Assembly: GCA_973895155.1 (NCBI GenBank)
Contig: OZ316891.1
Span: 32,189,208 to 32,253,207, forward strand
Direction: 5' to 3'
DNA length: 64,000 nt
DNA from: Marsupella aquatica
Taxonomy: Eukaryota; Plantae; Marchantiophyta
Of this stretch, positions 7,503 to 38,032 are shown in pieces. Under the pieces are notes generated by a model. It had not been told where the DNA came from. It made no database searches and saw only the letters and a program-made list of their open reading frames with translations. A program made the position numbers and the translations under genes. Each line of letters starts with the position of its first letter. Positions within the stretch are counted from its first letter, which is position 1.

Positions 7503-8950
7503 TGTGATGCCTAGCCAGGAATCACTAGGCCAGTTAAATGGTAAAATCAGGAGTGTTCCCTGGAAACACCTTAGTATAGTAATAAAAATATGGAAAATAT
7601 AAACAATTAAGGGTGACTATGGAACCCAAGCCAAGGCCGGAAGTAAGGACGCCGAGGGAGGGAACACGATTAGGGTTAGGGCGCGCTAAGTGTCGACGGC
7701 TAGGGGTCACCAACGGGAAGGAAGACCGGGCAATGAGGGGGGTAAGGACCGACCGCAAGGAATGGTGGCTCATTTGCAAGCACGAACTAAGCAGACGACT
7801 ACGGGAGGCCAACTACTGTCAGTTGCTTAGGCAAGCACTCAGGGTGGAGCAGATACCGGCTAATCAACGCAAGAAGGGTATGAGCAACGTCAATCAAGCT
7901 GCTAATTTTTGGGGATGCCTTTTCGAACGGGCAACTGAGTACATTGGGACCTACAAAGATGAAGATGAAGAGAGAGCAGCTAGAGAACGACAAGAGCTCG
8001 CTTGACTGCAGGAGCTGCAAAAGTCTGCCTTCTTAGGAGGAGAACTCATCAAGGCTGAATTCCTGTGGACACCTACTGGCGACGAGCTAGACGACCTTTT
8101 GTTTTGCAAGGACATAATCATCGGCATCCGCGAAGCCATCAAACGCTACAACGACATACACTGGGAGTTAAAAGGTAGCACGGAGGGGTGGACAAAGGCA
8201 ACCGTGCTAGGAGAAACATCCACGGCAGCCACTATGAAGAGGAAGGGGAACAACAACAAAGAAGCCACCCTTGCAAAAAGAACAAGGTTGGCGGCACCTA
8301 GGAAACCAGCACAGTAGGGAAGCAGGAGGCAGGCGGAAGCCGAAGAGGAGGAGGTCAACCCCATCAATGCCATTCCAACAAGAGATGATACCTGGACAGG
8401 CTGGGCGGCGACCCTCCCCAAGGAAGTGCAATTACACTTTGCACGTGAAGAGGATGCATGCTTTACGGCCATGCAAACTTGGAAATACCAGGGCTTCATG
8501 GCCGGATCCGGCTTGGAAGCCTTTGTAAGGTTGCCGTGGTTGAAGCCGGAGGTGCCGGATTCAGACTTACTAGAATTCGTGGGATCATGGGATCCCGAGA
8601 CCAATTCCACAAGGGTGTATGGGAAGGATTTCTATCTCACTCCTCGGGTGATTGCCAAAGTATTTGGCTTGCCGATGGGCAATAAGACCAAAGTAGATAC
8701 TAGGAAGACCTTGCTAGACAAGGAGTTCTGGTCATTTCCAGGGCCATCAACAAAGAATGGCTTCTTCCGAAACACTTGCACCAACCCGCACATAGGAGAG
8801 ATGATCAATTTCTTGCGGGTGTCCATGCATTGCAACTTGCCAAGGGCAGAGATCGGCAAGGCACAGGTCTATCTGGCGGAGAGGCTAGACCCAAGCCGGG
8901 ACTACAACGGGTACCTCCTCACCCAACTAAAGACAGAGCCATGGAGTACG
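7503..8950 (+). repeat. 3' LTR of gypsy A, first part, with the decayed LTR-borne ORF
   Basis: Starts TGTGATGCCTAG like the family B LTRs. ORF pieces 7613-8005, 8099-8317 and 8426-8950 match the N-terminal part of ORF 30305-33991. Confidence 0.9.
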
Positions 8951-9315
8951 ATCAGCCTATTCATTAAAAGTGTATTATTATTTGATTTATGTACATTTGG
9001 GCAGTGAAAAGTGTACTTTTGGGCTTGGAAAAGTGTACATTTGGCCAATGAAAAGTGTACATTTGGGGATAGAAAAGTTTACAATTGGCCTAAAGAGTGT
9101 ACATTTGGGCAATGAAAAGTGTAAATTTGAACATCAAAATAGATACATTTGGCTTTAAAAGTGTACATTTGAGTACATTTGGCCTAGAAAGTGTACATTT
9201 GAGTGCAAAATGCATACATTTGGCTTAACAAGTGTACATTTAAGTGCATTTGGTCTAGAAAGTGTAACTTTTAGTGCAATAAAGTGTACATTTGGCCTAA
9301 AAAGTGTACATTTGC
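8951..9315. repeat. Left TIR plus subterminal AAAGTGTACATTTG array
   Basis: TIR 8951-8976, then more than ten imperfect copies of a near-palindromic TGTACA-core motif at ~22-bp spacing. Confidence 0.9.
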
Positions 9316-9565
9316 CTACCAACTCTTATTATAATCATTTAAAAGAAAGGAATGAATAGAAAAACATTTTTAATTATGTAGAAAAAGCAAACATTCATAT
9401 TTATAATGATCAAAAGTTTAGAAAATGAGGAGATAGTATCACATTAAAACTATTAGAATAGTAAATAACTAGTACATAAATTACTATGTTTGAATGAGTG
9501 ACTATCTTAGTTACATAAAAACTAGTAACTATCTATTTAATTATTATAGCTTCTAACAACTAAGT

Positions 9566-12500
9566 CTACTTGTCCATCCTTTGAAGATAATTTTGGACAG
9601 TTTGTAGAACATTTCGAGGGATCTTCAAACCTCTGCCTGCCATGTTTTCTTCTTTCATTCCAGATTTAAAACCATACATTGCAGAATTTGCATACTGCCA
9701 ATGTTGAGTATTCTCACCAAACCCTGGATCTCGTTCCCATGTCTTAGTGGACATGAAACAATTTAGATACCGCGCACTCTCAGTCACATCAAGTTTACTA
9801 GAGTGTTTAGGCCTCCACCATTCAACTGGGAACATTGGAGCGTACTGTCGAGGCAGAGAAGGGTTTGTTGAAGATGTAGTTGGGACTTCATGCTTTGGGT
9901 CCACCAAACCCAAAGCTCTCACCAACCAGAAATGACCTCCACCATTTTTATTCTCCCAGTCATCCTCGGGTCGAAGAAATACAAAGTTTCCTTCACAAAT
10001 ATCTTGTAAAGGAATCCATCGTCCTTGTTCTCTCTCAGCTCGAGATCCAACAAATGGTGCTGCCTGATCTTCCATCTCTTCCAAGACCTCATTTTGAAGA
10101 GCCGTCATCGTCTGCATTCTCCTCATCTTCACTTGGAGGACCACTTTGTTCCGGTTGGTTGACCTTGTAACCAGTGCCGTGGTTAGTCTTAGGCCAAAAT
10201 CTGTTTTCCAAGGGAAATTGAGTACTTCCCTCCCCTTCTAGTGCGAGCCCATTTGTCAACAACTCCACAATTCTCTCCCAATATTTCACAAGAGGAAATC
10301 TTTCCTTATATGCTATAGATGTCTCATCAGTGCAACTCCTTCTCAAAAAATCAAGGTACTTGTTAAGAAATGGGATAATCTCTTCAGATTTTTTGTGTAT
10401 CTCTCCAATGGATTTAGCTAAGGGCTCTCCACTTGGTAAAAGAAGAGAATTTGTTGTCAGATCTGTTGCCCAAATGCACCTTCCACCAAGTGGAGCCCAA
10501 GCTTGCTTTACATGGGACTTATACTGAAATATTGGTACATTATCTCTCATAGAGAAAAGAAATGATACAGGTTTTGAGTGACCTTGAATATCTTTCACCT
10601 TGAAAGTTTGAAGATATTCTTTGTAAGATGCAACTTCTTGTATCAATCTGGGAACTGGATGAATGCTCTCGCATTCCCATACCTCTGCCATAAGAGCAAG
10701 GAGGGTTGCAACTTCTTTGTGCTGAACTTGATATGATACCTTTGAAAAGAGTGCATCAACATCTTCATGCGTATGACCAACCATTAGAAAAGACATTTGA
10801 ACAGTTTCAAATACTCCTCTACTCACAAGCTCGCTACAAAATGCCATGACAGTCTGGTTTTTGTTGTCCTTTGCTGAATTATCCATCTGCAATGTTAGGT
10901 GCCTTGGCAAGGGCTTGAACGATGGACTGCCTTGCTCTCCTTGCATGTCTTCTCCATCATCCTCATCTTGCTGGTTTGGGACGGTCTCAGTCCGACTCTC
11001 AGCTCCATCTTCAGAACCAATATACCTATTCACCGGTATATTCTTTGGTTCCAAATAACCCGTCAAAAATGCTTCAAAGTCAAGTAGGGCTTGAAAGAAA
11101 GGTCTGTGAGGTTCCCAATGAAGGCCATCCAACATGTCACCTGTCTTGTCTCCATTGTACTCTTCAAGGTCTCGAAGACACTTAGCCAAGGATGTCACCG
11201 TGAAATCGGCATCTCCTGGCCAAAGGCCAGTGACACTAAAGTGTGCATAAACTCCTGGATCCCTCCCGTGGGTCAACATCCCTGTGAGAGCAATAGGTAG
11301 CGGCATTCCATGACCCGAAAGAGATTTAGGAGTACTAACCATTTTTGGAATCCATGTCTTTGCTTGATCCATCTTGTCGTGAATAATGCAAAGATATTCT
11401 CCTGGGTGTTGTTTGGCCATCACTCGATGAGCGTAGTAAACATATCTACGTGACATTTGCTCACGAAGATGTTGCGCTCGTTTTTCTTCAATTTCAGCAC
11501 GTTCTTTTTTCCTTCTTTCTCGCATCAAACTGTCTTTGTATTCACAACAAAGAGTACACTTGGCAAATGCACCATCTTTATGAAAACTGAAGTTTGCAAA
11601 TGAGTTACTCCAGATCTTGTAGAGAGTATTCTCTGTGACAGGAGGAAGCCCTTCTTCCTTCATCTTTGTTCTCACATCTTCCAGAATCTCTAGCTTTTTG
11701 TAACACGCCGGAAGACGGTACTCAATAGAGTCTGTCCCATGTGCCCCTCCATAAGGCATATGAGGCATGGGCTCTGCATTTCGAGTCAAAAAAGCCTCCA
11801 ACAGAGCTCGTGCATGCAAGGTATTTGCCCTTGTTTTCATCAAGCCCGTATTGCCATGGAACCCAATTTTGCAACCCTCCACATATCTCCTTTTGTAATC
11901 ATAATATTTGGTGTGGCTAAAACCGTGGATAATTGCAAATGCATGTCTGCATACGACCATACCCTTAAGAACATGGTGTCCCTTATCACGAACATCATCC
12001 TCTCTATAGTGAAAGAGGTTGAAAATGTGTGACGTTTTTGACTCGCTTGACATCCCATGAAATTCCATCCTAATATCTTCGATGTTTTCCCTTGGCATAA
12101 TGAGACAACATTTTTGCTTGCAACAATTTTCTCTTTTCACGTCATCAATTGACGCCTCTGTTGTTTTTGAAATTGCCTTGGTTTCCAACAACCTCCTCTT
12201 CTTTTCATTTGGATCTACTTGATTCCTCTTGTTAAAATTGTAGGGCCTTGAACGCAGTACTCCTCTATCACTTACATCCGCATTGAGTTCATCCCTATCC
12301 ATTGAGTCCATCCTTTCAGAACCTTCCACCAAAATATCTGACAAAAATTTTCCATTTGCAACTAGTTTTGTTGAATCAATCCGCCATCGAATCAAACTCA
12401 CTACTCCCTTGTGGATGTTGGGAAAGTATTGTGCTGCCACGACATCTTTCACAGCAATCCCAACATGGTCATCACCAAGAATTTCATCATCAACTGCCGC

Positions 12501-13349
12501 CATCACTTGAGGGACAGTGATCGTTCCCGTGGCAACCATTTTGGTTCGATCCAAACCAGTGTAGAGTTCAACCAACTCTGACATCCAGTTTGCCCGATGA
12601 AAATAGTCACACTTAGTGTCTGTGGTGTTTGCCGAACAAGACTGTGAAACAAAATCCGCCTTGTCCTTCTGCTTCTTAGAGGAAGATTTGTTGCTCCCAT
12701 CGATATCAACATTCCATACTTTATTGTGGACGTCAGCCACATCCCATAGAACCCAGGAGCCCTTTGCCTCTTCAATTGTTGCAGCTCCACCATGTGCGTA
12801 AGGTAAAGTCTTACTACCATGAATCACATCTGTGATTTTTACACTAACCCGAGACTCACCGAGTAATATGTTATGACATCTCTCCATTGGATCAGTGTTG
12901 AAAACAACTCCAAAGGCCACACAATGGCCAGAGATAAACATTTCAACCTCATCACCTGGCCTTAGGGTGGTCGAAGCATCCTCCTGTACATTTGCAGAAT
13001 TATGGATGTTGTTATCTTTTCGAGTCGAACAACTACCAATACTGATGCGTTTTTGAGTAATCTTATCCGCAGATCGATATGCACATGACATATCCCAAAT
13101 GACACATGAGTCAATGGCATCATGAAGATTTTCCGCCCTAGGCATTGGAAAAGGGAGCTTCCTGGTCTCACCAAAGGCCTTCTCAATGAGAACCCCAATT
13201 CGATTCTCTCCCAGCACAATATTTTGAACACTCTCTTGCGGATCTGTCTTTTGAACTGTCCCATTTCCAACGTCGTAACCATCCATTGTCAAGGTCACAT
13301 CATCGCCCCTAGAAAACCTTTGAGACATCCTTTTCCTATTATCCTGCAC
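9566..13349 (-). CDS. Transposase, Sola-like / DUF7869-type DDD, with one probable frameshift near 10100
   Basis: 1086-aa ORF with IIHDKMDQ, LQMDNSAKDNKN and FLMVGHTHEDVDALFS catalytic-type motifs and Cys motifs (CCKQKC, VCRHAF, CTLC). First ATG at 13328. ORF 9566-10144 overlaps in another frame and looks like the C-terminus. Confidence 0.85.
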
Positions 13350-13394: not shown

Positions 13395-14155
13395 AGACTG
13401 CGATCCTCAAAGTCTGGATTTGGACTACGATCCTTCAATTCTGGATTTGGACCGGGACCATCCGAGTCCGGATTTGGACTACGATCCTCTGATTCTGGAT
13501 TTGGACTAGGACCATCCGAGTCCGGATTTTGACCGGGACCATCCAAGTCCGGATTTGGACTGCAATCCTCTGAGTCTAGATTTGGACTACGATTCTCCGA
13601 TTATGGATTTGGATTGGGACCATCCGAGTCCGGATTTGGACTGGAATCCTCCGAGTCTAGATTTGGAGTACGATCCTCCGATTCTGGATTTGGACTGGGA
13701 CCATCCCAGTCCAAAGTTGGACTAGGACCATCCCAATCCAAACTTGGACTCGGACCATCCCAATCCAAACTAGGACTTGGACCATCCAAGTCCAAACTTG
13801 GACTCGGACCATCCCAATCCAAAGTTGGACTCGGACCATCCTAATCCAAACTTGGACTCGGACCATCCCAATCCAAACTAGGACTTGGACCATCCAAGTC
13901 CAAACTTGGACTCGGACCATCCCAATCCAAAGTTGGACTTGAACCATCCTAATCCAAACTTGGACTCGGACCATCCCAATCCAAACTAGGACTTGGACCA
14001 TCCAAGTCCAAACTTGGACTCGGACCATCCCAATCCAAACTAGGACTTGGACCATCCAAGTTTAAACTTGGACTCGGACCATCCCAATCCAAAGTTGGAC
14101 TCGGATGATCCTAGTCCACATCTGAATCCAAACTTGGACTAGGACCATCCTAGAC
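13395..14155. repeat. 27-bp tandem hairpin-unit array upstream of the transposase
   Basis: Unit ~TTGGACTCGGACCATCCCAATCCAAAC. Gives 9-aa-period shadow ORFs (DWDGPSPSL). Confidence 0.92.
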
Positions 14156-14839
14156 CAACCCATAATGTAACGGGAGATAAACTTCAAACATTTTAAGCTA
14201 AGAAAATTCCAAATTTAGGAAGACTCCGTATTTTACGGATCTCCCTATATGGTGTAGCCTAAAGTTTGCGTGGTCTTAAGGTAGACCCTAATGTCTACAT
14301 ACAGTTTCATGAAATAATGAAACCTAGCCTTATATTTGAATGCGTTAACCTTATACTCACCTTAGTATTAAGATCTGGTAGAATATGAATATCACATCCA
14401 AGGGGGATACATTGTTGTCTGTAGATTGGTAAAAACTTTCCCAGAACCCTGAAATACAAGCTATATGCCACTAAATCTTGGGAGTAAAAAACAAACTGAA
14501 CCCTAAACCACACATGTCTATAAAAGATAAACTGAGAGGACCCCAAAAGTCAAGAAGCTGGCTAAGCTGACCCATTGAAGGTAAGTGGCTCAATACATAA
14601 CACTTTAAGAGAAACTCCGGATTACATGGAGCTTAGATTTGGGAAACTAGAACAAGAATGAGCTCCGAAGTGGGCGTCTCCCGAAATATACCCTTTGCTC
14701 GAGTCGGCTCAAACGGAAATCGCGTGAAGATAAGGGTTGAGTACCCCTTCACCTTAGCTTGCAGCACACCTTATCTTCACGAGCCTAATTGCGCGGGGAC
14801 TACCGTGCAAGGCTGTTAGGTAGGCAGGACATCAAGGAA

Positions 14840-15220
14840 GGAGGCCCGTATGCAGGGTGCGGGCAACGGGCCGTACGCAGGAGCAAGCCGTACGCACTAT
14901 CAGGCCGTACGTAGGAGAAGGAGGCAACCGGCCGTACGCAGGCCGGGGTGAGGCAGGAGGGGGTAAAGGGACGGAGAGGTCCAGCCAGGACCTCATTCTC
15001 ATTCTCACTCTTTCGCTCCTCACTCTGCTCACGCTCTCCACTCTCCGCCTCCGCTCTCTGCTCTTTGCCTTCACTCGCTCGCTCTCCTCGCTCTTTGCTC
15101 TCCGCTCTCTCTCCGCCTCCCCGCCTCTGCCTGCTTCCGCCTCCACCTCCATTCTTTTTCATTGCCCTAAATCGGACGCCTGCTAAGAAGCCACGTGTCA
15201 CTCTGCCACGTGTCAGAAAG
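14840..15220. promoter_or_regulatory. Putative bidirectional promoter between transposase and cargo gene
   Basis: GC-rich island with ~5 GCCGTACG-type repeats (14845-14942), a CT-rich tract (~14990-15155), and two GCCACGTGTCA G-box/ABRE-like motifs (15190-15215) just before ATG 15221. Confidence 0.5.
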
Positions 15221-18200
15221 ATGGAAGCGAATCGCGTCCTTGTGAAGTCCTCCGTGGAAGCAACAGAGGAGTTTGACCTCTCCTCTATGAGCGACAGTGT
15301 AGAACTGGCACTTGAAGACTCCAAACAATTTCAATCAAGAATCCCTAGTAAGTATCCATCACCTATCCTCCCTAAGTCTTAGAGGACTGGGACCATCCGA
15401 GTCCAAAGTTGGACTCGGATGATCCCAATCCAAACTTGGACTCGGACCATCCCAATCCGAACTTGGACTCAGATGATCCTAATCCAAACATGGACTCGGA
15501 TGATCCCAATCCAAAGTTGGACTCGGATGATCCCAGTCCAAAGTTGGACTCGGATGATCCCAATCCAAAGTTGGACTCGGACCATCCCAATCCGAACTTG
15601 GACTCAGATGATCCTAATTCAAACGTGGACTCGGATGATCCCAATCCAAACTTGGACTCGGATGATCCTAATCCATCCAGGAGATTGAATCTCGATTGTA
15701 GGAGCAAGACTAAAACCATCTCAAGTTGGACTAGGACCATCCTAATCCAACAAGAGTTATTCAAATGTTTTAAACTTAATAAGTCTAACATGGATGATGT
15801 TTTTATGATGCAGGGAGCGATCTTGTTGGTTTCAAACCCGCGATTGCACCGACCGACTGCCGGGACGGATTCTTACTAGATGAGAGATCCCCAGGCTTCC
15901 GATGGGGGCTTGAGTTCTCAAGAACCCTGCTTAATAATGAAGTGCCATCAAGCACGATTGAACCTGTTTTGACCTTAAAGTGCAGAGCAAATGATAGCCT
16001 GACTTTGGTTTGCGGACCTGTGGTCTCTGTTGGCATTGGAGGGAGAGGGATGAATTCGGTCATTCTGGAGATGCACGATAGGTCATGCTGGGTTAAAGTT
16101 AACCTTATGTCAAAGGCATACTCCTCAGAATTCAATGTCGAATGGCACGCAAGTGGTGAATTGAGCGTTTTGTCAATGGGATTTTTTCCAAAGACATATG
16201 ACACAAAGAAGTTGGTCATCGGGGTAACTGGTATGCTTCCAGTCGACATTATGTATGGGTTTCAATATTTGAAACTCAACATGATGAAGCACCAAGGCAA
16301 TTTCTCTTTTGCAACTACTTGGACGTTAAGCAATTTACTTGAGAAAGTTGGATTGTTATCGTTGGAGTCAGAGGAGCCTGGTGTTTTAATTGATAAGGAT
16401 GTTGCATTTGATCCCAACTTTGATTTAGTCAAAGCAAAGCAATGGATAGAATCTTTGTCAAAGATGAGAAACCTTCCAACGGTGAATACAAACCCTGTGC
16501 CCGAGAAGGCGCCAGAGAAAGCTCCAGAACCTACAACAGAGACCGCGGGAACTACAGCAGCAACCTCTCAAAGAGCAGTGGGAAAACAAAAACAAAGCCA
16601 AAGGAAACCTCCGGTTGAAAAGAAACTTCCAGTTGAGAAGCTGGTTGAGAAGCCGAGTACGAGAAGCCGAGTTCAGAAGCCAGTTGAGAAGCCGAGTACG
16701 AGAAGCCAAGTTGAGAAGCCAGTTGAGAAGAAACGTCCGGTTGAGAAGCCAAGTGCAAGTGAAAAGAGGCCAAGACAAAAGAAGAAACAGAAAATTGACA
16801 GTGTCATCATGGATGACACTATAGAAAACCTGACAGTGCATTCACAAGATATGGACGAGCAGTTGGACGCTCCTGAGGAGAAGAAGGTCTTAGAAGGTAA
16901 TGAGGTACTACAACAAATGGAGCAATATTATACGTTTGGGATCAATTCGATATTTTCTATTCCCGTAGAGAGTATTTTCCCTGCGTCGGCAAGACTCTGT
17001 TACAGAATGTTGAATGCAGACCATGTAAAGGAGGTGGCCAATTCCATGATAAGAAATCCGGGGCATGAACCACACATAGCAGACTTGATTCCTTACACTA
17101 CAAAACATAGAAACCTAATGCAATATGACAACACGGAATCAGATAGGAGGGACTTTGTAGCAGCCGTGAAAAAGGGGGAGGTTCAATTCCTTGCCATTAG
17201 CGGTCAACATTCAGCCAGAGCAGCCAGATGGATTCGAGAATGGGCAAACAAGGATGCCAAGCTAACAGCATTGGCAAAAAAGCTGGAATTTCGAAAGTCA
17301 AGAATATTATCTCATCGAACACCATCATCAATATTAGTTGAGCATTCAATGCGATCTAATGCTATCAATAGCACGATGGTGTTTCAGTCATGCTTCAAAG
17401 ATACAGTCGTTCATGCTAGGCGGCAATTTGTGGAATGTGGAAAACCTAGCCGGCCAAAACATGGGGACAACAAAACAAACGCTCAAGACAATCAAAAATT
17501 TCAGGTATGAAGTGTTACTGCTTGATTGGTACAATACCGTAGACTCTCCATGTGTGATTACAATTGAGATGGTAGTCTTTGACCACAAAGCTTCAAGTTT
17601 GCTTTGGATTGAGATGGTCCGAGTCCAAATGGATACATTCACATTCAGTAGAATATTTCCACTGATATCGTCTAGTTTTGTGTTGGACTGGGATGGTCCC
17701 AGTCCAAATGGATTCATGCACATTCAATAGACTATTTCCACTGATATTGTCTAGTTTTGTGTTGGACTGGGATGGTCCCAGTCCAAATGGATTCATGCAC
17801 ATTCAGTAGAATATTTCTCCACTGATACCGTCTAGTTTTGTTTTGGATTGGGATGGTCCTAGTCCAAACTAAATCATGCACATTCAATATAATATTTCCA
17901 CTGATACTGTCTACTTCTGTGTTGGACTGGGATGGTCTCACTCCGCACCTGAGTGCTTTCAAACAATTGAGTTATGGAGAACTAACAGACTTTCCTTTGC
18001 AATTGTAGGATTGGTTGGCTCTTGCAAGAATGACCATGGGAAGGAAAGATTGGCGTAATGTCTACTGGTTACTGTTTGCCGACAATGCTCTTTTTGATTT
18101 ATGGAGTTTGGTATGCCAATTGTGGTTGGATGGGAAACTTCCCGATGGAGCTGGTGTAGAAGGAAATGAGAAGTCTGAAAAAGCAATTACTGTTGCCATG

Positions 18201-20381
18201 TTTCGTTGTTTTGATGGTGAGTTGATCTCACAACGAGACATCACAAGAATACTGACGCGGGTGAAGTCAGGAAAGGTATTGCTAAAGAAAGATGCCTCTA
18301 ATAAATCAGACATGCCATCTATAGAGGAGTTGGCCAAAGATGTGAAGATCGTGCGGAAACTCAAGTCCCTTATTGAAGACTACTATTGCACCAAGGATGC
18401 GGTGAATTTCCCGACAAATACTAATTGGGGGAAAGTAGTTGAGGTTCTTCCTACGCTAGCAATTGATTCAGAGTTCAACAGGTGTCGAAGAGCCGCTGGC
18501 GAGGTCTATCTTGCCAACCTTTTAAAGCCAAATCATACGCGGGAGAGCGCAATCTTGCCGACGGCATTGGTATTCCGCCTAGATGATATATACTGCCAGA
18601 GATTTGGCGGAGGATCACGTTCTCGGACCCTACCATGGGTTACATTTTTTAGCGACAATCTCATGAAGACCATTGATCCAGAGTCATTGCAAGAAGCTCC
18701 TCCGACCTGCCCTCTTGCCATTGTTGATTTTAGCCGGCTTCCACAAAAACAGTGGACTGAAGCAGAGATTCTTGTTCTCTTTGAATACATTGTGGAGCTT
18801 CCACAAAATCCCACGATTGTGGTGACGATAACAGTTCATCCTGGACAACTTGCACTGAATGTCCATGGTGCCCTTCGTAAATTGGGACAAGAGAAAGCTT
18901 TGACCATTCACATTGAGTATGGGAGTTATTCACGAGATGATCAACCGCACCCTCATGACTCATGTTGGGGTGGAGGGATTGAAGAAGTTATCTTTGCAGG
19001 GATTTCTCGAGATGAAGACGTCAATTGGAATGAAGTTTTCAAGCCCAACTATCCAAAGCCAAAATTCTTGTATACTTCAAAGGATGTTGATTATGAAGTA
19101 TGCAAGATCGACAAGGGAAAGGGGAAAGCTAAGGAATCAGATGAGGGGACACAAAACGACGACCTAAAAGTGGTTTTGGACCCGGAAGAGGCCGTCAAGA
19201 TTATGAATATGGCCCCTCGATTTGAGACAGTTGGTAGTCGCGGAGGATGGGTTAATCCTCATGCCAAACCCACGCGGATGATCCGAAGGATTATTGAATC
19301 CTTATCAGAACCGGGAGATTTGGTTCTAGATTTTTTCTCCGGTGGCCAAGTCATGAAGACATCATTTTTTTGCGATAGGGAATGCTTTGTTTATTGTGAC
19401 TCTCAGTCCGAGAGGCATTTTGTGGAAGCTTTTGCTTCCTACCTTTGCGAGAGAGTTCCCTCACTTAAAGCCCATTGTGAATCACTTGCTGAAAATTCTT
19501 GACAATGGGCTACCACTATTGCGGCTGTAGCTGTCGCTGTTGAATCCGACGGTTCTGAGTCTGAAGATGTTGCTGACAAAGTGGCTAAAGGCGTAGAGGC
19601 ATCAGACGAGGCATATGTCAAAAATTTGGATGACCGTGTTGGTCAAGGTGAGCCTTACGATGTAGATGATGATATTGGACTTGCACCAAACCGTTCATCT
19701 GGTTTAGATGACATCCCTCCGGGGCCCCATGAAGTTCAAGTTGATGATAACTTGGACAAGGATGATCCCAATCCAACAACGCCGGGAGGACAGATGGAGC
19801 AACTGGAAGGAGCAAGGGTTGATATGTTTGATCATCTTTCTTCAACCAATCTGATCAACGAAGGCGCAACGAGGCTTGGAGATTCAAATGAAGCTGAAAC
19901 TAACGAATTGACTCGTGGGGAAGCCGGCGGATTGCCTGACATTCCCATCAATCCAGGAGGAAATGCATCAACGGCTGCTGACAACCAGGCAGGTGCTTCA
20001 ACTTGTCCTGACACACTCTTTTCAGCTTCTGATGACAAATTGGTGTTCGTTCGTTCACACTCGAGGAGTCCTGTTGTCCTTCCGTTCTCAAAAAAGAAAG
20101 GGAATAGAGTTGGATCAACTGGATGGAGGTCATTGGAACGCGACGCACGATGTTACGTGTGGAAAAGTGGGCCAAATCGAGGCCAAGAAATATCATTGGA
20201 AGCTGCTCCTTCAATTCTCAATAAGGAGGAGTATAAGAGGGGAGAATTGGGGTTCATAACTCCTGTTTGGACTTCTCCTTATTGGGTAGAACAAAGTACT
20301 TCAGATGTCAATTTTGAAATCCAACAGGAGCTTGGTGCTGACATGATTATTGATGAATACGGATCTCTTATTTCGGAATGA
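15221..20381 (+). CDS. Spliced cargo gene with ParB/Srx-like and DNA N6A/N4C methyltransferase-like domains (~1396 codons, one internal TGA at 19500)
   Basis: Exons 15221-15347, 15814-17504 and 18009-20381 join in frame via GTAAGT..CTAAC..CAG (phase 1) and GTATGA..CTAAC..TAG (phase 0). Motifs LNADHVKEVANSM...FLAISGQHS and NPHAKPTRMIRRIIESLSEPGDLVLDFFSGG. ORF 19581-20381 is in frame beyond the TGA. Confidence 0.75.
15383..15750. repeat. 27-bp tandem array inside predicted intron 1 (15348-15813)
   Basis: Unit ~TTGGACTCGGATGATCCCAATCCAAAC, same family as 13395-14155. Confidence 0.9.
17600..17942. repeat. ~80-bp tandem array inside predicted intron 2 (17505-18008)
   Basis: About four units, each containing TTGGACTGGGATGGTCCCAGTCCAA, the reverse complement of the 27-bp motif. 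Confidence 0.88.
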
Positions 20382-20523
20382 AATTCAGCCTTTGACTTTC
20401 TATTTATTCATATCAATCTAAAATACTTCTCGGTCTCACAGAATGGGCTCACCAATTAAAGTCTCCATATCCGTCTACACATTGTGAGGCTTCTAAAAAC
20501 GGTATGTAGGTTAATTTTCGTTT

Positions 20524-21657
20524 TTGTCAGCCATTGTGTTGTATTTTTGGACTGAGACAATCCTAATCCAAAGTTCACTTTTGGTCTTTTCTCTGAGAAT
20601 GGTGTTTGGTGCACTTGCAGAATCGAGACCTGGTCCCGTCAAGCGGAAGTTGCTGATTTTGGACCTTAATAAAATACTTTGGGATTCTATTGAATTCCAA
20701 AACAAGGGCACATCCAGGAATATTGTCACCTCAAGTGGAGTGCATTGGGATAGAAAAAATGGTATTAGTCGCATGTATACAGAACGACCAGGGCTCCATG
20801 AGTTTCTAAAGTTGGTTTTTGACAGATTTGATGTTGCAATTTGGACTTGTGCTGGGGTAGAACGAACAGTGAAAATGCTGAACATGATGTTCACTGTTGA
20901 GGAGCGGTTGAAACTTAAGTTTGTATTCACACAGGTGGAAGCCTTTGACACAGGCATTCAAAGGCGTGACATTACAAACGGAAAGGCAAATGTGCTACTG
21001 AAGGATTTTCAGGTGGTATGGAATGCATTTGGAAATCTATATGATGAAACCAACACCCTCCTTGTGGATGACTCCCCCCTTAAGGCATTTGCCAACCCAG
21101 ACATGACCGGATTATTTCCAGTGCCCTACACGCATGCCAATCGTGGAGATAATTTTCTTCTAGCAATTCTTTGGCCATGTCTTGAGAAACTATCACATGC
21201 AAGTGACATTCGATGCTATCTTCTTCTCAACTCTCCAAAGTGGTCTCTTTTGCACATGAAGAGAGACAAGGCAAAAAATGAGATTACTTATGATCAACTT
21301 AGCAAGAGATTTGCAGCAAAAATTTGGAAGTCACAGTTTACACATAGTGTGTTGGACCTCAACAGTAATGAGATCCCTTGGAATGTAAAGCACCGTATAT
21401 GTAGTTTATGTCCTGAGGTGGAACTTGACAATGCACTTGTCAACTCACTTGCTAAATCATTTTTAGGAAAGGACTATTCAGGTCCATATAGAGAAAATCC
21501 CAGACACTTTTTGCGGGAGATTATAGCCATTAGGAACAACACCACCAGATTTCAACTCCCTGAAAATAAAGTGAGTTGCAACCGTGACAATAGGGTAGAT
21601 AGGAAAGGAGACAGGGGCACATGCTCAAATACACATTGTAGGGAGCACTTGGTTTAG
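20524..21657 (+). CDS. FCP1/NIF-like HAD-family phosphatase domain protein (probable true exon start 20621)
   Basis: KLLILDLNKILW, RPGLHEFLKLVFDRFDVAIWT, LLKDF and NTLLVDDSPLK match the NIF/FCP1 pattern, with DLN in place of DxD. Cys/His-rich tail. Confidence 0.85.
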   Translation: MSAIVLYFWTETILIQSSLLVFSLRMVFGALAESRPGPVKRKLLILDLNKILWDSIEFQNKGTSRNIVTSSGVHWDRKNGISRMYTERPGLHEFLKLVFDRFDVAIWTCAGVERTVKMLNMMFTVEERLKLKFVFTQVEAFDTGIQRRDITNGKANVLLKDFQVVWNAFGNLYDETNTLLVDDSPLKAFANPDMTGLFPVPYTHANRGDNFLLAILWPCLEKLSHASDIRCYLLLNSPKWSLLHMKRDKAKNEITYDQLSKRFAAKIWKSQFTHSVLDLNSNEIPWNVKHRICSLCPEVELDNALVNSLAKSFLGKDYSGPYRENPRHFLREIIAIRNNTTRFQLPENKVSCNRDNRVDRKGDRGTCSNTHCREHLV

Positions 21658-21899: not shown

Positions 21900-22039
21900 T
21901 TTGGCCTATAAAGTGTACATTTAGAGACACAAAAGTGTACATTTGGGTGTCTTGAAGTGTACATTTGGGGACATGAAAGTGTACATTTCAAGACTCATTT
22001 GTGAACAAAAGAAAATACACTTTTAATGAATAGGTTGAT
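21900..22039. repeat. Right subterminal AAGTGTACATTT copies plus right TIR
   Basis: Four motif copies at ~21910-21988; TIR 22014-22039. Confidence 0.9.
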
Positions 22040-22850
22040 TACGGGAGATGTGTGGGGAACTTGCGCTCAGCATCTTTGAGGAGGAGTTGGAGCAGGGACC
22101 CTTTTTCCAGAGGGAGATGTTGGAGAAGCGCCGATCAGAAGAAGCGGTGGCTTTGGAAAGAAGCAAGAAGGACGAGGTCATTTGTCGGCTTAGGGCAAGG
22201 GAAGCCAAGGTAGAAGACCTGAAGGCGGCCAAGAAAACCCAAGATGAACTGCGGATTAAGCGGCATGAGCTAAACATCATGCAGGGGCAATTGGATACCG
22301 CACAGTCTGATAATTGGATTATCGAGAATAAACTGACTCGGACCCAAGGAGAGTTGGCCGAAGCAATCAAGGAGAGGGAGAAGTGGAAGCGAGAGCTAAG
22401 GGACGCAAAGGAGGCCCACATAGCAGCCAACAACTGGGCCATGGCGGAGACCCAGAGAAGGGAGAGGGCGTTGAAGGGGGAGCTCAAGGATATCCTTGAG
22501 CAGAAGGAGGCCGAGTTAGGGAAATCCTATCAGACGATTATTATGCTGCAACAGGAGCTTGCATCCCTGACGGCCAGCTTCAAGGCTGACCTCCGTGAGA
22601 AAGATGACCAGCTCGACTTGACTTATGCCAAGATGAATAAAATGGAGTCTGAGGTCGTAACGGAGCTCAACAAGGAGCTAAGAGCAACCCAGGAGGAGAG
22701 GGCTACCTTAAAGAAGGAGTTGGAGGCAGCCCACAAGGAATTGGAGGAAGCCCAGAAGGAGCTGGAAGAGGCGCGCAAGGACCTGGACGAAGTGCAGGAG
22801 GAGTTGGAGGAAAGCACGTGGAAGATGGAGAACTTACAGCGGCGAGCCAA
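22040..22850 (+). repeat. 3' LTR of gypsy A, continuation (coiled-coil part of the LTR ORF)
   Basis: MCGELALSIFEEELEQGPFF...MENLQRRA matches ORF 30305-33991. Cut at 22850 by the family C LTR. Confidence 0.9.
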
Positions 22851-24348
22851 TGTCACGTCCCTAACCTGGGTCTTAAATCCAGTTTAGTTTCATGGCGCAA
22901 CCTCGACCACCAGTAGGGGTGAGGGTTTGGGCAAGGAGGTGTGTAGTGGCCCCGATTAGCCCTAAGTCGGGCTAAGTTGATATACTTACTGGTATAACAC
23001 TTACGCAATTTGTACTAGTCATAGGTATATTTATTTTCCATTGCTGGAATTTTCCCTCAATTAGTGACTCGGACTAACTCCCGGCTTGGGGCTTTTCAAG
23101 CCATCGACGTGACAGAACCTTGTGACATGCAATGGGTGGCAATCCCTACCATTAGTCCGCACCCGGTACGTCCCTTAAAATGGCGCCTTTGCCCAGACAA
23201 AGCATACACACAACACCAGTTACTTGCGGAAACATTAGAGGGAAAAGGCTACATTTACTCAGCGAAGCATCAGTTTACATGGTTGACTCGACTTCTAAGG
23301 GGGTCAGCAGGCCCAACGGCAGTCGATGCCCAGTCTCTACAAAGCCCCGCCTCACACTTGCCCAGCAAGCTCGACTCTGGCTCTCACTCCTTGGTGCGCT
23401 CTGACCCTACTCAGGCCGGGACTCCCCGTGTCTCGCCTTTTCTTCTGCTGAGATAACTAAGCCTTCTCCCCCTTCCATGGCGGAAGGGGAAGCCTAAATA
23501 CTACAGTTGCAAAAGGGAACCAGAGGATACTACCTTCCGGGATACTACCTACTGACTAACTACCCTCTGACTAACTGGCCGTGCTGTACTGACTGGTTGA
23601 CCATTGACGACAAGAGTGCTAACCGGAATGGCAGCAGCTAAGCCTACTGACAAAATCTAGTCCGTTGATGGACTCCATCCTACGCTGGCGGCTCCTAACT
23701 GATTTGGTCCTAATTCTTCCTACTACCACTAATCGGCGCCTAATGACAGCTATTCTGTCTTTACGCTTAACCAAAAGATGTCGCTGACTCAATTGCCTTG
23801 CGTGGCGCTTGCTTCCACCCTTTGCTAACCACCCCTTACGTGTGTGCTGTGGTTGGACCTGGGTTTGTCCCCCTGTCGGGGCAAGACCTCAAGCCGCCTT
23901 GATCAGAGGTGGGCCCAGGTTTTCCCCGCTGGAGGACAAGCAGGGCAATGCAATCCTGCAAGGCCTTGTTGTCCCGCACCGCCTCCTTCGCCTTGTTTGC
24001 AGCTTCATCGGCCTCTGTCTGGAGCCGCGCTACCTCCAGCTTGAGCTGGTTAATGGAGTTGCAATGGGTCTGGTCCTGTGCCAGCAATTTATCCCGTTCG
24101 GCGGAGAGACTAGCTACCTGCTGAGCTGCCTGTAGGAACTGTTTGTTGAGGTCGGTCAGGCTGGTAACCCGAGCCAAAGATTCTGAGCGCAATTGAAGCA
24201 CGGAATCGTCCAGCTTTTTGAGATCTACTTGCGCTCCGCTCAACTCCTGTGTTAGTCCGTCCCTCTGTTCGACGGTGCGGACTAACTCCTCACGATGGGT
24301 AGTGGCCTCCTCCTCGAGGTGCTCTACCAGCATTTGGAGGCGTTGTCC
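22851..24348 (-). repeat. Gypsy family C 3' LTR, distal part
   Basis: 22851 onward closely matches 63247-64000 (TGTCACGTCCCTAACCTGGG...). Contains coiled-coil ORF end 23836-24333. Confidence 0.9.
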
Positions 24349-29383: not shown

Positions 29384-32300
29384 TGTGGTGCGTCCCATGG
29401 CTCCCTAAACCCAAGAAACCCCCCAGCTCAAGCCGATTCCCGCAGGTTTCGTGCTTGGCGAGGCCGTTTCCGCGGCTTAGCGGCATGGGACGCTGCTAAC
29501 CTTCTACTACTACTATTAACATTTTACACACATATACTGGACAGATCCTTCATCGGGTCATGAGATACGTAGCCGGCCTAATATAGGCCTTCCCCTGTCT
29601 TCCCCTGTCTTCCCCTCCGTCTTGTTAGGTATGTTTGGATTCCGCCGCCGGAATGATCCCCAATAGGCTTGGTTAAGCCGCTAAGACCTCTCTCAGCTCG
29701 ACACATCCAACTCTCACTCCCCTGCTTACTTTCCTTCCTTCTGTTGATGTGGGCACTCTTCACACAAGTTAATGCGACACACAAATAGCAAAATGACTCA
29801 TTCTGACTGAGTCATACCATGCACTTGCCATACAAACAGTACATCTCATACACAAGTTCTGCGAACTAAGCCGTGAGGCCAACTCTATTCAGCTCTTAGG
29901 CATGAGGAAACATGAATATACACAAGGGTCACTGTATGACTAACCGAGAGCTTCTCGTACTACTTGATCCCAGCCCGGCTGGTGCAAACTAAAAACTTGC
30001 TAAAGAAGAGGCCCTGAGCTCCCCGCTGCCCAGGTACTTATCCTGGTAGTGGATCCGCCATTCTTTGCATCGTAAGCCTAATCTACCTGACAGTAATCTA
30101 CTTGCCCGAATCTACCTATGTACAGCAAGGCAGGAGCACAAGTGTTGCTCCTACCAGTGGGACCGCAATCCCACTAAGCTAAGTGTCAGGGCCGCTCCTG
30201 GTTCTGATCCTAATCCTAAACGTGGAGATCCGCGCCCGCCCTGCCCACTCACGCCTCCTCCCTCCACGTCCGCCCTCCCTAAAAGGAACGGCGCCCTTGC
30301 ACCGTCACGACACCGGTGGTGGATCCTCAATGGACGCCCCCAACACTTCCTCCTCAGCCACTGCCGTTGGCCCGCCTACTGACAGATTACCTGCCCTTGA
30401 CCGAGTCAACTCTCCATCGGCCTGACTGGGTCCACCTTCGGCCTCAGCCTCGACACCGGCCTCGGCAATACCCACGGCTTCGGCCTCAGCCACTCCAACG
30501 GCTTCGGCTTCAGCCACTCCAACGGCTTCGGCTTCAGCCACTCCCTCGGCTTCAGCCTCCCCTTCCCCTAGGGTAGTTGGATCCTTAGCCGTGACCCTGT
30601 CTGGGGTCGGTGCTGGGTCTACCTCCTTGATCACCACGGCCTGTGAAGTCGTATTACTCCTTGACCCTGAAGGTGTCCGCTTCTTCTTCGTTGGTGGCTC
30701 GGCAGCTGGTCCCTTCCCCTTCCCACTTACTTCCGGCACTGGTGCAGGTGGCGTGGCTTGTCCTTCGGCAATTACCACCCCTGGTAACTGGTTTGTCCCA
30801 ACGGGAGATGGACCTGCTGCAGCTAAGCATTTAAATACTGCGGCTTGTTTCTTCAGCCGCTCTGTTTGGTTGTCGGCCCGCCGCTGTAGGTTCTCCATCT
30901 TCCTCGTGATTTCCTCCAACTCCTCTTGGGTTTCATCCAGGTCCTTACGTGCCCCCTCCAGCTCGTTTTTGGCCTCCTCCTGCTCCCTGTGGGCTTCCTC
31001 CAATTCCTTCTTCAAGGTAGCCCTCTCCTCCTGGGTTGCTCTTAGCTCCTTGTCGAGCTCTGCAATGATGACAGACTCCATCTGGTTCATCTTGGCGTAA
31101 GTCTGTTCGAGCATCTCGTCCTTCTCCCTTAGGTCGGCCTTGAAGCTGGCCGTCAGGGACGCAAGCTCCTGCTGCAGCGCCATAATCCCTTGATAGGATT
31201 TCCCTAACTCGACCTCCTTCTGCTCAAGGGCTCCGCGGATTTTCTCGAGCTCCCCTTTCAACGCCCATTCCTTTCTTTGGGTCTCCGCCATGGCCCGGCT
31301 GTTGGCTGTTATGTGGGCCTCCTCTGTATTCTTCAGCTCTTGCTTCCACTTCTCCCTCTCTTTGATCGTGTCGGCCAACTCTTCCTGCGTCTGAGTCAGT
31401 TTATCCTTGATATTCTGATTATCAGCCTGCGCGGCGTCCAACTGCCCCTGCATGATGTTCAGCTCATGTCGTTTAATCCGCAGTTCATCTTGGGCTTTCT
31501 TGGCCGCCCTTAGATCTTCAATCTCGGCTTCCATCCTCCTAAGCCGCTGAATGACCTCGTCCTTCTTGCTTCTCTCTAAAGCCACCGCTTCTTCTAATTG
31601 GTGCTTCTCCAACTGCTCCCTATGGAAAAAGGGTCCTACCTCCAACTCCTCTCCAAAGATGCCGAGCGCAAGTTCCCCACACATCTCACCATACTCCATG
31701 GCTCTATTCTTAGCGTAGGTGGAGTAAGTAGAAGTGATCGGCATCGCCCATCGTGGCCTCTGCTCCCAAGCCGTCCTACGGATCTCTTCAATCGTGGCTA
31801 GAGGTTTGCTTCCTTTTTCGGCTAGCCGCCTGATGTCCTCCGGCCAATCTCCCCCTGGTAAATCCTTTTCCTTAGCCAGGGCGGCCTCTTCCTCCTGCTT
31901 GATTCGCTCCTGAAATTCCTGCACCGTCTGTTTTATGCCGTCAAAGCTCGGGGGAGCAACATCTGGTGGGGGAGACTCAGGGCTACTCTGCTGGTTGGGG
32001 TCCCCTCGCACTACCCTTGGAAGTGTGGGGACAAACCGGCCACAGGTCCTTACTCCTGGAACGTGATGGTCCGACCCATAGCCGGAATTATCATGGCTGC
32101 AGTCCTCCACTGCCTCCTCTACCTCTTGGACGTCCGGCTTCTCCCTCTCCTCTTCGTCGGTAGGAGCTTCAGGCAATTCTGCCTCAGATTCGGAGCTTGA
32201 GGTTCCCACGTACATTCGAACACCTGGCTTGGATTCCGGCCTGATTCTCTCCTTGTCTCCAGCAAAGGGGTTTTCTCTTGTGAGCCGGTGTTGGCCTACC

Positions 32301-34406: not shown

Positions 34407-34530
34407 TAGTTGTACCTAACCACATAGTTGTACCTAATCACGTAGTTGTACCTAACCACATAGTTGTACCTAATCACGTAGTTGTACCTAACCACGTAGT
34501 TGTACCAACCCACGTTGTTGTACCAACCAC
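34407..34530. repeat. 18-bp tandem repeat in the copia LTR (also at ~40481-40604)
   Basis: About 7 copies of TAGTTGTACCTAACCACR. Confidence 0.85.
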
Positions 34531-34759
34531 GTCATACCTAACCTAGACGTAAGAGTAAATACCCAACAATCTTCCCCTTGACTCTGGTCTAGGGGAGAGT
34601 AATACTGCCAATGTATATGATCCCTCAGCGGGAAGTTCTGGACAGAAATCAAACCGGTTTCCCTCTCTAACTAGAGCAAACCAGAACTAAGCCGTAGCCT
34701 AATACATAGGAATGAGGAAGAGCATATATCAGTAATTACAATGAATGTTTAAGAAAACT

Positions 34760-37700: not shown

Positions 37701-38032
37701 TCTCCCGACCTGACTTGAAGTTCACCATCAATAACGCTCCATTGATGACCATTTGAATCCAACACACCGAGTGAAATCAGATTCTTACGCATGCCAGGTA
37801 CATACCTGACTCCGGACACTGTGCGCACAGCGCCATCAAACATTTGAATCTTCACAAACCCAATTCCCTCAATTTGACAGGAGTGATCATTTCCCATCAG
37901 AACTGAACCGTTTGAAATAGAGTAAGAACTGAAAAACTCACGAATGTAACAAATATGAAAAGAGCAAGCACAATCAAGAATCCACACATCATCTGCTCTC
38001 CTAGATGACGTGCACAGGGCATACCCCCGGCT
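34760..38032 (-). CDS. Copia pol (protease, integrase, RT, RNase H) with an in-frame TAG at 35924-35926
   Basis: WILDCACSFHI, LRSDNGGEY, QQNGVAERLNRTL, YKARLVAKGF, LVLYVDDML, KHIDVRY. ORFs 35924-37987 and 34760-35917 are in the same frame. Confidence 0.95.

What the first reader, a model, noticed from the sequence alone, without database searches (positions are those of the whole stretch)
15221..20381. Separate ORFs join into one spliced ParB-MTase-like gene
Introns 15348-15813 (phase 1) and 17505-18008 (phase 0) have GT donors, CTAAC branch points and YAG acceptors. They join MEANRV..RIP/RSDLVG and QKFQ/DWLALAR exactly in frame. One TGA at 19500 (possible CGA>TGA or TGG>TGA) separates the in-frame acidic tail. 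A prokaryote-style domain pair has thus been converted into a spliced gene, with a basic PVEKP-repeat/NLS-like linker (~16500-16800).
Basis: partly seen in the sequence, partly recalled or inferred. Interest (0 to 1): 0.8.

Follow-up and report, generated by a model that had tools for sequence, protein, structure and literature searches.

The report
Plant transposon's ParB–pseudo-methylase helper gene
This is a likely spliced, bacterial-style gene (a ParB-like fold joined to a DNA-methylase-like fold that lacks the usual catalytic motif) inside a damaged 13-kb cut-and-paste transposon of a probably moss- or liverwort-like plant, whose protein may bind a mirror-image DNA word repeated 43 times in the element, a design already reported from algae.

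Summary
The gene model holds up. Both introns are GT-AG with CTAAC branch points and give one 1396-codon frame with one TGA. Intron 2 is strongly supported by homologues: eight predicted liverwort proteins cross the junction, 38 of 48 anchored genomic relatives break there with a GT-encoded Val (49), and a 32%-identical locus has a 109-nt intron at the same codon. The TGA is a lesion: most sister copies read CGA, and all six distinct homologues run into the tail. No RNA run was available. The gene is cargo of a 13.1-kb Sola-like DNA transposon (TIRs 8951/22039, TACG flanks) with a divergent, frameshifted DUF7869 transposase, an FCP1-like passenger gene and 43 copies of a 25-bp palindrome. The folds are PH-like, ParB and beta-class amino-MTase, but DPPY is replaced by DFSR and the ParB arginine by serine. 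A ParB + N4C/N6A-MTase accessory gene is published for the brown-algal Sola1-1_Ec32. Verdict: real, a land-plant variant of a known kind, mechanism untested.

The parts
8947..8950 (.). left copy of the 4-bp target duplication TACG, inside a Gypsy-like retroelement ORF (MEYGEM)
   Evidence: empty-site alleles appear as loose ends at 22043 in runs X1 and X2; the right flank here is one G shorter than those alleles
8951..8984 (+). left terminal inverted repeat (34 nt, 88% to the right TIR)
   Evidence: (I22)
8990..9318 (+). left subterminal ~22-bp repeats (AAAGTGTACATTT core)
9566..13328 (-). DUF7869 Sola-like DDD transposase (HDKMD 11381, QMDN 10889, HEDVD 10769); frame broken by one extra base near 10110 in this copy
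   Evidence: Pfam PF25273 E 2e-43; 79 homologues; the base at 10110 is absent from all contigs covering it in 4 of 4 runs
13396..14158 (.). array of 27-bp units, each holding a 25-bp palindrome (11-bp arms TTGGACTNGGA / TCCNA(G/A)TCCAA, 3-nt spacer); 23 sites; probably in a 5' intron of the transposase gene
   Evidence: acceptor-like sequence before the transposase ORF
15221..15347 (+). exon 1 (42 codons + 1 nt); least supported part
   Evidence: ATG, GTAAGT donor and phase; no homologue
15348..15813 (+). intron 1, phase 1, with 12 palindrome sites
15814..17504 (+). exon 2: PH/EVH1-like domain (~15864-16301), basic disordered linker (16500-16838), ParB/Srx-fold domain (~16944-17378; SGQHS at 17199)
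   Evidence: AF2 model, mean pLDDT 78.5; VIA Z 9.2, rmsd 2.4, 95 residues to M. xanthus ParB 7bnk; Z 6.4 to the Avo1 PH domain
17505..18008 (+). intron 2, phase 0, 79-bp repeats with 5 palindrome sites; position conserved across the family
18009..19499 (+). exon 3, first part: helical domain, then beta-class amino-MTase fold (~18627-19478); motif IV position DFSR 18726, motif X NPHAKP 19254, motif I DFFSGGQV 19329
   Evidence: PF01555 E 1.3e-6; VIA Z 16.5, rmsd 4.3, 212 residues to CcrM
19500..19502 (+). premature TGA; CGA in most sister copies
19503..20381 (+). exon 3, tail: acidic disordered stretch and a conserved ~135-aa C-terminal domain
   Evidence: 40% identity over 140 aa to the C-terminus of P0001, E 9e-24
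20599..21657 (+). passenger NIF/FCP1-like HAD gene (DLN in place of DxD); one palindrome upstream at 20547
   Evidence: PF03031 E 1.8e-15
21910..21988 (+). right subterminal 22-bp repeats
22006..22039 (-). right terminal inverted repeat; a contig of run X3 also stops matching at 22039
   Evidence: (record 22)
22040..22043 (.). right copy of TACG

Best explanation
This is the likely spliced accessory gene of a 13.1-kb, multi-copy, Sola-like DNA transposon, and its ~1400-aa protein (predicted PH-like, ParB-fold and methylase-like domains) most likely binds the element's own 25-bp palindromes and acts there without ordinary methyl transfer. Shown: exon-intron signals, the open frame, element ends, the palindrome map and the sister-copy alleles. 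Predicted: the three folds. Inferred mechanism: the basic linker takes the protein to the nucleus. The ParB and helical part loads as a dimer on the palindrome arrays that sit in both introns, before the transposase and before the passenger gene. The MTase-like domain keeps its SAM-site motifs but has lost DPPY, so it works as a DNA/SAM-binding module that marks, shields or organises the element (self-recognition or anti-silencing, as VANC does for VANDAL). This copy is damaged: CGA>TGA cuts off the conserved tail after the MTase fold (1103 aa left), and the transposase carries a one-base insertion.
For: Frame and signals. Eight liverwort gene models cross the intron-2 junction, and P0069 and P0082 hold both the ParB motif and MTase motif I in one chain. 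38 of 48 anchored ParB hits end in [FWYL]xV at the junction, against 7% background Val. L001 has a 109-nt GT-AG intron at the same codon. All 6 distinct MTase homologues read into the tail. CGA in sister copies. TIRs, TACG flanks and empty-site alleles. In X1 the closest contigs have similar depth over the transposase (455) and this gene (364-431), a weak hint of joint amplification. 43 palindrome sites lie inside the element, 41 of them non-coding, against 1 marginal site in 50.9 kb of flank and 0.32 per shuffled 64 kb. Folds. PPY is absent here and in 11 of 11 homologues screened, while DFFSGG is kept in 9 of 9 that reach motif I. The role of DPPY/SPPY in target binding: PMC10406627 passages. 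Same design and the same self-binding proposal in algae.
Against: No RNA run, so neither splicing nor expression was seen. The junction-crossing proteins are gene predictions whose RNA support I could not see. Exon 1 has no homologue. No helix-turn-helix match was found for the helical region, so the DNA-binding part is not identified. The palindrome arm was taken from the window itself, and the homologous 109-nt intron of L001 shows no such repeat on reading. The palindromes could instead be transposase sites or passive repeat expansions. The invariant SAM-site motifs and the kept motif-IV Asp also fit an active, non-canonical enzyme. Constraint among close sister copies is weak for this gene: 11 of 30 listed changes are synonymous against about 22% expected, versus 18 of 25 for the transposase (only the 40 best rows of each table were shown). 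Linkage to the transposase in other species was not shown: 1 of 9 Riccia ParB genes lay within 4 locus tags of a DUF7869 gene, chance 0.21.
Confidence: 0.55

Rival explanations
1. Same gene and element, but the MTase-like domain is an active enzyme with a non-canonical site (D-F-x-R in place of DPPY) that methylates the element's DNA (4mC/6mA) or a protein once ParB has brought it to the palindromes.
For: Motif X (NPxxKP), motif I (DFFSGGQV, invariant in 7 of 7) and the motif-IV Asp are kept across 30-48% identity. The whole beta-class fold is intact. The Ectocarpus relative is described as a predicted 4mC/6mA MTase.
Against: The Pro carbonyl and stacking Tyr that position the target base in CcrM and N4CMT are missing in every homologue screened. 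Motif I is one residue shorter than in M.RsrI.
Confidence: 0.2
2. The protein is a transposition co-factor: it binds element DNA and the transposase, pairing ends or steering insertion as MURB or the Harbinger Myb protein do, and has no part in chromatin marking.
For: Head-to-head layout with the transposase; an array directly 5' of the transposase ORF; a PH-like domain that could bind a partner. The MURA-MURB interaction is reported (PMC12973397 passages).
Against: The palindromes are internal, not subterminal; the ends carry a different 22-bp repeat, the more usual transposase-binding position. It gives no reason for keeping a SAM site.
Confidence: 0.15
3. The gene is passive captured cargo, and the palindromes are neutral repeat expansions with no link to the protein.
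For: This copy is broken. Synonymous excess among close copies is weak. Intron-2 repeat number varies between copies (17541-17790 skipped in X1, X2 and X3).
Against: Motifs, intron position and C-terminal domain are kept across liverwort and lycophyte relatives at 25-60% identity. The same word recurs in 27-bp and 79-bp units and as single sites in four separate non-coding intervals, keeping its symmetry.
Confidence: 0.07
4. The ORFs are separate genes (a ParB gene, an MTase gene and an acidic-tail ORF) and the splice signals are chance.
For: Most database hits are single ORFs that stop at the introns. No RNA was seen.
Against: Those ORFs stop at a conserved GT position, fused models exist, and L001 has a short intron at the same codon. 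Homologues read through the TGA position.
Confidence: 0.03

Closest known systems
Accessory protein of Sola1-1_Ec32, Ectocarpus (PMC12477816; main-text passages and supplement rows seen, figures not)
   Same: Sola-type element with 4-bp TSD and TIRs; a second gene on the strand opposite the transposase; ParB-like plus N4C/N6A MTase domain; proposed to bind and modify its own element.
   Different: Land-plant host; 13.1 kb rather than 21.5 kb; 34-bp rather than 282-bp TIRs; catalytic motif lost; added PH-like domain, acidic tail with conserved C-terminal domain, FCP1-like passenger and mapped palindromes in the introns. Sequence homology to the Ectocarpus protein was not tested.
PAG2 and PAG3 of red-algal Plavaka (EnSpm) elements (bioRxiv 10.1101/2025.02.11.637652; passages seen, supplements closed)
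   Same: Transposon-borne ParB-like domain next to tandem arrays of inverted repeats; a PF01555 methylase domain among the accessory genes.
   Different: There ParB is fused to a 2OG oxygenase and the methylase to a SET domain, in two genes; here ParB and the methylase-like fold are one protein, in a different transposon superfamily.
Beta-class amino-MTases: CcrM, M.MboIIA, M.RsrI, M.PvuII, rotifer N4CMT
   Same: Fold and motif order (IV before I); Z 14-16.5.
   Different: DPPY/SPPY replaced by DF(S/G/T/A)R; fused to ParB; transposon-borne.
Bacterial ParB/Noc/KorB CTPase clamps with palindromic parS sites
   Same: N-terminal ParB/Srx fold, Z 7-9; palindromic sites nearby.
   Different: The GxxR arginine (motif recalled) is Ser or another residue in all 60 hits where the motif was read; no HTH identified; no ParA.
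VANC anti-silencing proteins of VANDAL transposons (as described in passages; otherwise recalled)
   Same: Transposon-encoded accessory protein that acts on motifs in its own element.
   Different: Unrelated fold and superfamily; activity shown for VANC, untested here.

Membership tests
Sola1 DNA transposons | Sola1-type DDD transposase | tested here: inconclusive
   Three acidic motifs present; DUF7869; 31% over 583 aa to a Physcomitrium DUF7869 protein. The Ectocarpus element's best hit is Sola1-1_PPa. No named Sola1 sequence was available for direct comparison; that DUF7869 equals Sola1 is my inference.
Sola1 DNA transposons | terminal inverted repeats | tested here: met
   34 nt, 88%
Sola1 DNA transposons | 4-bp target site duplication | tested here: met
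   TACG on both sides; one site only; the right flank lacks one G relative to empty alleles
Sola1 DNA transposons | AWWT target preference (PMC3845634 passage) | tested here: not met
   TACG at this single site; the Ectocarpus Sola1 is listed with a different bias (ending in A)
Sola1-1_Ec32-type accessory gene | ParB-like + N4C/N6A MTase-fold fusion on the strand opposite the transposase | tested here: met
Sola1-1_Ec32-type accessory gene | sequence homology to the algal protein | not tested
   the Ectocarpus protein was not among my hits or tool-held sequences
beta-class N4C/N6A DNA methyltransferase | fold with motif IV N-terminal to motif I | tested here: met
   Z 16.5, rmsd 4.3, 212 residues to CcrM; PF01555 above its cut-off
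beta-class N4C/N6A DNA methyltransferase | catalytic (D/N/S)PP(Y/F) motif IV | tested here: not met
   DFSR at the end of the matching strand (model D240; CcrM D31 by range and strand order); no PPY-type motif in 11 of 11 homologues
beta-class N4C/N6A DNA methyltransferase | SAM-binding motif I (FxGxG) and motif X | tested here: inconclusive
   DFFSGGQV invariant and NPxxKP kept, but one residue short against M.RsrI; binding not testable
beta-class N4C/N6A DNA methyltransferase | methyl transfer to DNA | not testable with these tools
   needs an assay
ParB CTPase clamp | ParB/Srx N-terminal fold | tested here: met
   Z 9.2, rmsd 2.4, 95 residues; Foldseek top ranks all ParB/Noc/Srx but best E 2.7e-3; no Pfam ParB hit
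ParB CTPase clamp | GxxR arginine of the CTP site (recalled) | tested here: not met
   SGQHS in 47 of 82 hits, other non-Arg variants in 13, motif not read in 22
ParB CTPase clamp | HTH DNA-binding domain after the ParB domain | tested here: inconclusive
   a helical region follows, split between the two models; no HTH row listed
ParB CTPase clamp | binding to a cognate palindrome | not testable with these tools
   a candidate palindrome exists

The most novel reading that the evidence does not exclude
Early land plants carry Sola-like transposons with a ParB/parS-like self-recognition system. A spliced ParB-pseudo-methylase protein loads on a family-specific palindrome planted in its own introns and spacers, and uses a SAM-binding but non-DPPY methylase fold, with a passenger FCP1-like protein, to keep the element out of host silencing. 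That would be a second, unrelated route to VANC-like anti-silencing, built from bacterial parts.
Probability: 0.3. Interest if true: 0.8.

Novelty: new variant of a known kind. Interest (0 to 1): 0.45.

Why it matters
Algal papers of 2025 proposed that ParB-type accessory proteins bind and modify their own transposon, but the passages I read report no test. This element supplies a land-plant case with a defined candidate site (a 25-bp palindrome, 43 copies), mapped ends and many near-identical sister copies, so binding and methylation can be tested directly in a bryophyte-type system. It also shows that the land-plant branch has lost the textbook catalytic motifs of both domains while keeping the folds, which argues against simply calling these proteins DNA methyltransferases. 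For annotation, such genes appear in liverwort and lycophyte assemblies as unnamed host proteins and are probably transposon cargo. My paper searches found no land-plant description; the library lacks most subscription journals and Repbase reports.

Tried and rejected
No whole genome is held for this window, so copy number and a multi-site TSD could not be measured. No RNA holder listed; the runs laid cover the introns and gave no joint at either intron, which says nothing about splicing. Pfam found no ParB family in exon 2 or in 46 aligned members beyond weak DndB hits in 2. A profile search of solved structures with the ParB alignment gave only low-complexity matches. tblastn of the MTase part against 50,697 phage records gave no match; PHROGs gave MTase families on the motif-I region only. 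A viral-contig scan with the ParB alignment could not be run because no block was conserved enough. ESM Atlas gave sub-0.9 leads only: N6_N4_Mtase for exon 3, nothing useful for the N-terminal domain. Riccia locus-tag adjacency of ParB and DUF7869 genes was not above chance. TGG>TGA rejected. Kinship with the chlorophyte ParB-HTH Dam fusions of PMC4738411 set aside: those are placed in that paper's group 2, whereas this fold is beta class. The NIF ORF as a fourth exon was considered. Homologues end at or just after the 20381 stop and the ORF has its own ATG at 20599, so it is treated as a separate gene; alternative splicing is not excluded. The original Sola paper was not held. No complex prediction was run.
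Full report
Observation. The three exons give a 1396-codon frame with one internal TGA at 19500-19502. The linker at 16500-16838 is basic, repetitive and predicted disordered.

Intron 2. A search with the 204-aa ParB region returned 82 proteins. Local BLAST of the joined translation against 90 fetched proteins found eight that align well across the junction at residue 606: P0004, P0018, P0061, P0064, P0069, P0075, P0082 and P0088; P0085 crosses by 19 residues. They are NCBI gene models of Calypogeia fissa (2), Riccia sorocarpa (6) and Diphasiastrum complanatum (P0085); their RNA support is unknown to me. P0069 and P0082 carry both the ParB motif and MTase motif I. Of the 82 hits, 34 lacked my anchor pattern (fragments or misses, including P0069 and P0082). 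Of the other 48, 39 were flagged with [FWYL]xV at the junction; one (P0018) is a false flag inside a spliced model, leaving 38, with a median of about 10 residues after the Val. Five ran on and four were other cases. A Val there is what read-through of a phase-0 GT donor gives. The one metagenome locus found (1 of 135 pattern matches, 32% identity) has a 109-nt GT-AG intron at the same codon, KEFH|DWE.

Intron 1 and exon 1. Homologues align from residues 53-70 of the joined protein, and the PH-like domain begins about 60 codons before the first Met of exon 2, so an upstream exon is needed. Diverged sister contigs begin to match at 15802, next to the acceptor. The specific 42-codon exon 1 has no homologue and is inferred from its ATG, donor and phase.

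The TGA. In four runs from three organism labels, contigs read C at 19500 in 343 of 475, 4574 of 5278, 14080 of 14080 and 17.8 of 17.8 depth units. The change is CGA>TGA, the usual result of methyl-CpG deamination (established knowledge). The remainder in X1 and X2 suggests that some sister copies share the stop. All six distinct MTase homologues continue through an acidic stretch to a conserved C-terminal domain that ends like the window's. The stop leaves 1103 aa with both main folds.

Context. The gene lies in a 13,089-bp element bounded by 34-nt TIRs (8951-8984, 22006-22039) and TACG on both sides, inside a Gypsy-like ORF whose empty alleles appear as loose ends. The ends carry 22-bp subterminal repeats. 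A DUF7869 transposase with three acidic motifs runs on the minus strand, head to head with this gene; one extra base near 10110 is absent from every covering contig in four runs. A NIF/FCP1-like ORF follows at 20599-21657. The named relatives of both proteins are mostly from liverworts, mosses and a lycophyte, so the host is inferred to be a seed-free land plant. The rest of the window is mostly LTR retroelements. Thousands of variant contigs were laid on the element, so the family is multi-copy; depth is not a copy number.

Palindrome. The 27-bp repeat of intron 1 and the upstream array, the 79-bp repeat of intron 2 and a single site before the NIF gene share one 25-bp palindrome. With up to 6 mismatches there are 43 sites in the element (23 upstream, 12 in intron 1, 5 in intron 2, 1 in the spacer, 2 in low-complexity coding stretches), 1 marginal site in 50.9 kb of flank, and 0.32 per shuffled window. 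The arms were taken from the window, and most sites are tandem copies, so they are not independent events.

Folds and motifs. The exon-2 model (46 sequences, mean pLDDT 78.5) matches ParB/Noc/KorB N-domains (best Z 9.2, rmsd 2.4, 95 residues) and, more weakly, PH/EVH1 domains at the N-terminus (Z 6.4). The exon-3 model (7 sequences, mean pLDDT 69.9) matches beta-class amino-MTases (CcrM Z 16.5, rmsd 4.3, 212 residues). The strand that ends in DPPY in CcrM ends in DFSR here; this placement comes from the aligned ranges and strand order, not from a printed residue alignment. No PPY-type motif occurs in 11 homologues screened, while D[FL]FSGG is present in the 9 that reach it. PMC10406627 (passages) shows the Asp/Ser, Pro and Tyr of that motif holding the target base. 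The ParB motif reads SGQHS, without the arginine I recall for ParB CTPases.

Mechanism. Shown: gene structure signals, element anatomy, alleles and palindrome map. Predicted: folds. Inferred: nuclear import through the basic linker, loading on the palindromes, and a non-catalytic, SAM- or DNA-binding role for the methylase fold in marking or shielding the element (0.55). Rivals are an active non-canonical methylase (0.2), a transposition co-factor (0.15), passive cargo (0.07) and separate genes (0.03). Against function in the recent family, only 11 of 30 listed sister differences in this gene are synonymous (about 22% expected by chance), against 18 of 25 in the transposase; the tables showed only their 40 best rows of about 800 and 1100. 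Linkage to the transposase in Riccia was not above chance.

Known systems. PMC12477816 (passages and supplement rows) describes Sola1-1_Ec32, 21.5 kb, 4-bp TSD, with a 1104-aa ParB-like + N4C/N6A MTase gene opposite the transposase, and cites similar algal proteins; one cited chapter (its reference 50) I saw only as a reference line. The Bostrychia preprint (passages; supplements closed, and they may hold alignments that bear on homology) describes ParB-containing PAG3 beside inverted-repeat arrays. PMC4738411, PMC3845634, PMC5751038 and PMC12973397 were seen as passages. It works like the algal accessory proteins; it is not filed as an active DNA methyltransferase or as a ParB CTPase, since a defining motif fails in each, and its Sola1 membership is likely but not settled. 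Earlier notes of this scan report the same design in other plant, animal, fungal and protist windows; they are unchecked and not counted as support, but they suggest that this is a recurring class rather than a one-off.

Verdict.

Noticed in passing
window 20599-21657 (+): FCP1/NIF-like HAD passenger gene inside the transposon, with DLN where active phosphatases have DxD (motif recalled); possible acceptors at 20440 and 20620 and a donor at 20502 hint at 5' exons or alternative splicing from the gene studied.
   Followed up: partly
window 15864-16301 (+): Well-predicted PH/EVH1-like domain at the N-terminus, conserved in many relatives and not found in Pfam or the ESM Atlas.
   Followed up: partly
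window 19980-20381 (+): Conserved ~135-aa C-terminal domain (about 40% identity to P0001) of unknown fold; not modelled.
   Followed up: no
window 12400-13328 (-): The transposase N-terminus holds repeated ~80-aa units (G.G.V...DP.E......LGE.R..V.I); many homologues carry PF26133, possibly this region.
   Followed up: no
window 7586-9007, 22039-22887, 30305-34006, 48250-51018: A Gypsy-like family with a large extra coiled-coil ORF occurs in at least three copies; the copy hit by the transposon also lacks the middle of that ORF just left of the insertion (loose end at 8933).
   Followed up: no
window 34407-40606: Copia element with 18-bp tandem repeats at 34407 and 40481 (likely in its LTRs), apparently nested in a Gypsy element between two near-identical LTR-like blocks (29589-30559 and 46997-47943).
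   Followed up: no
window 14800-15220: GC-rich then CT-rich stretch between the two head-to-head genes, likely a bidirectional promoter and 5' leader; well conserved in X3 (14977-15244, no differences).
   Followed up: no
window 53785-55681 (+): Two unassigned ORFs (244 and 291 aa) without Pfam hits above cut-off.
   Followed up: no
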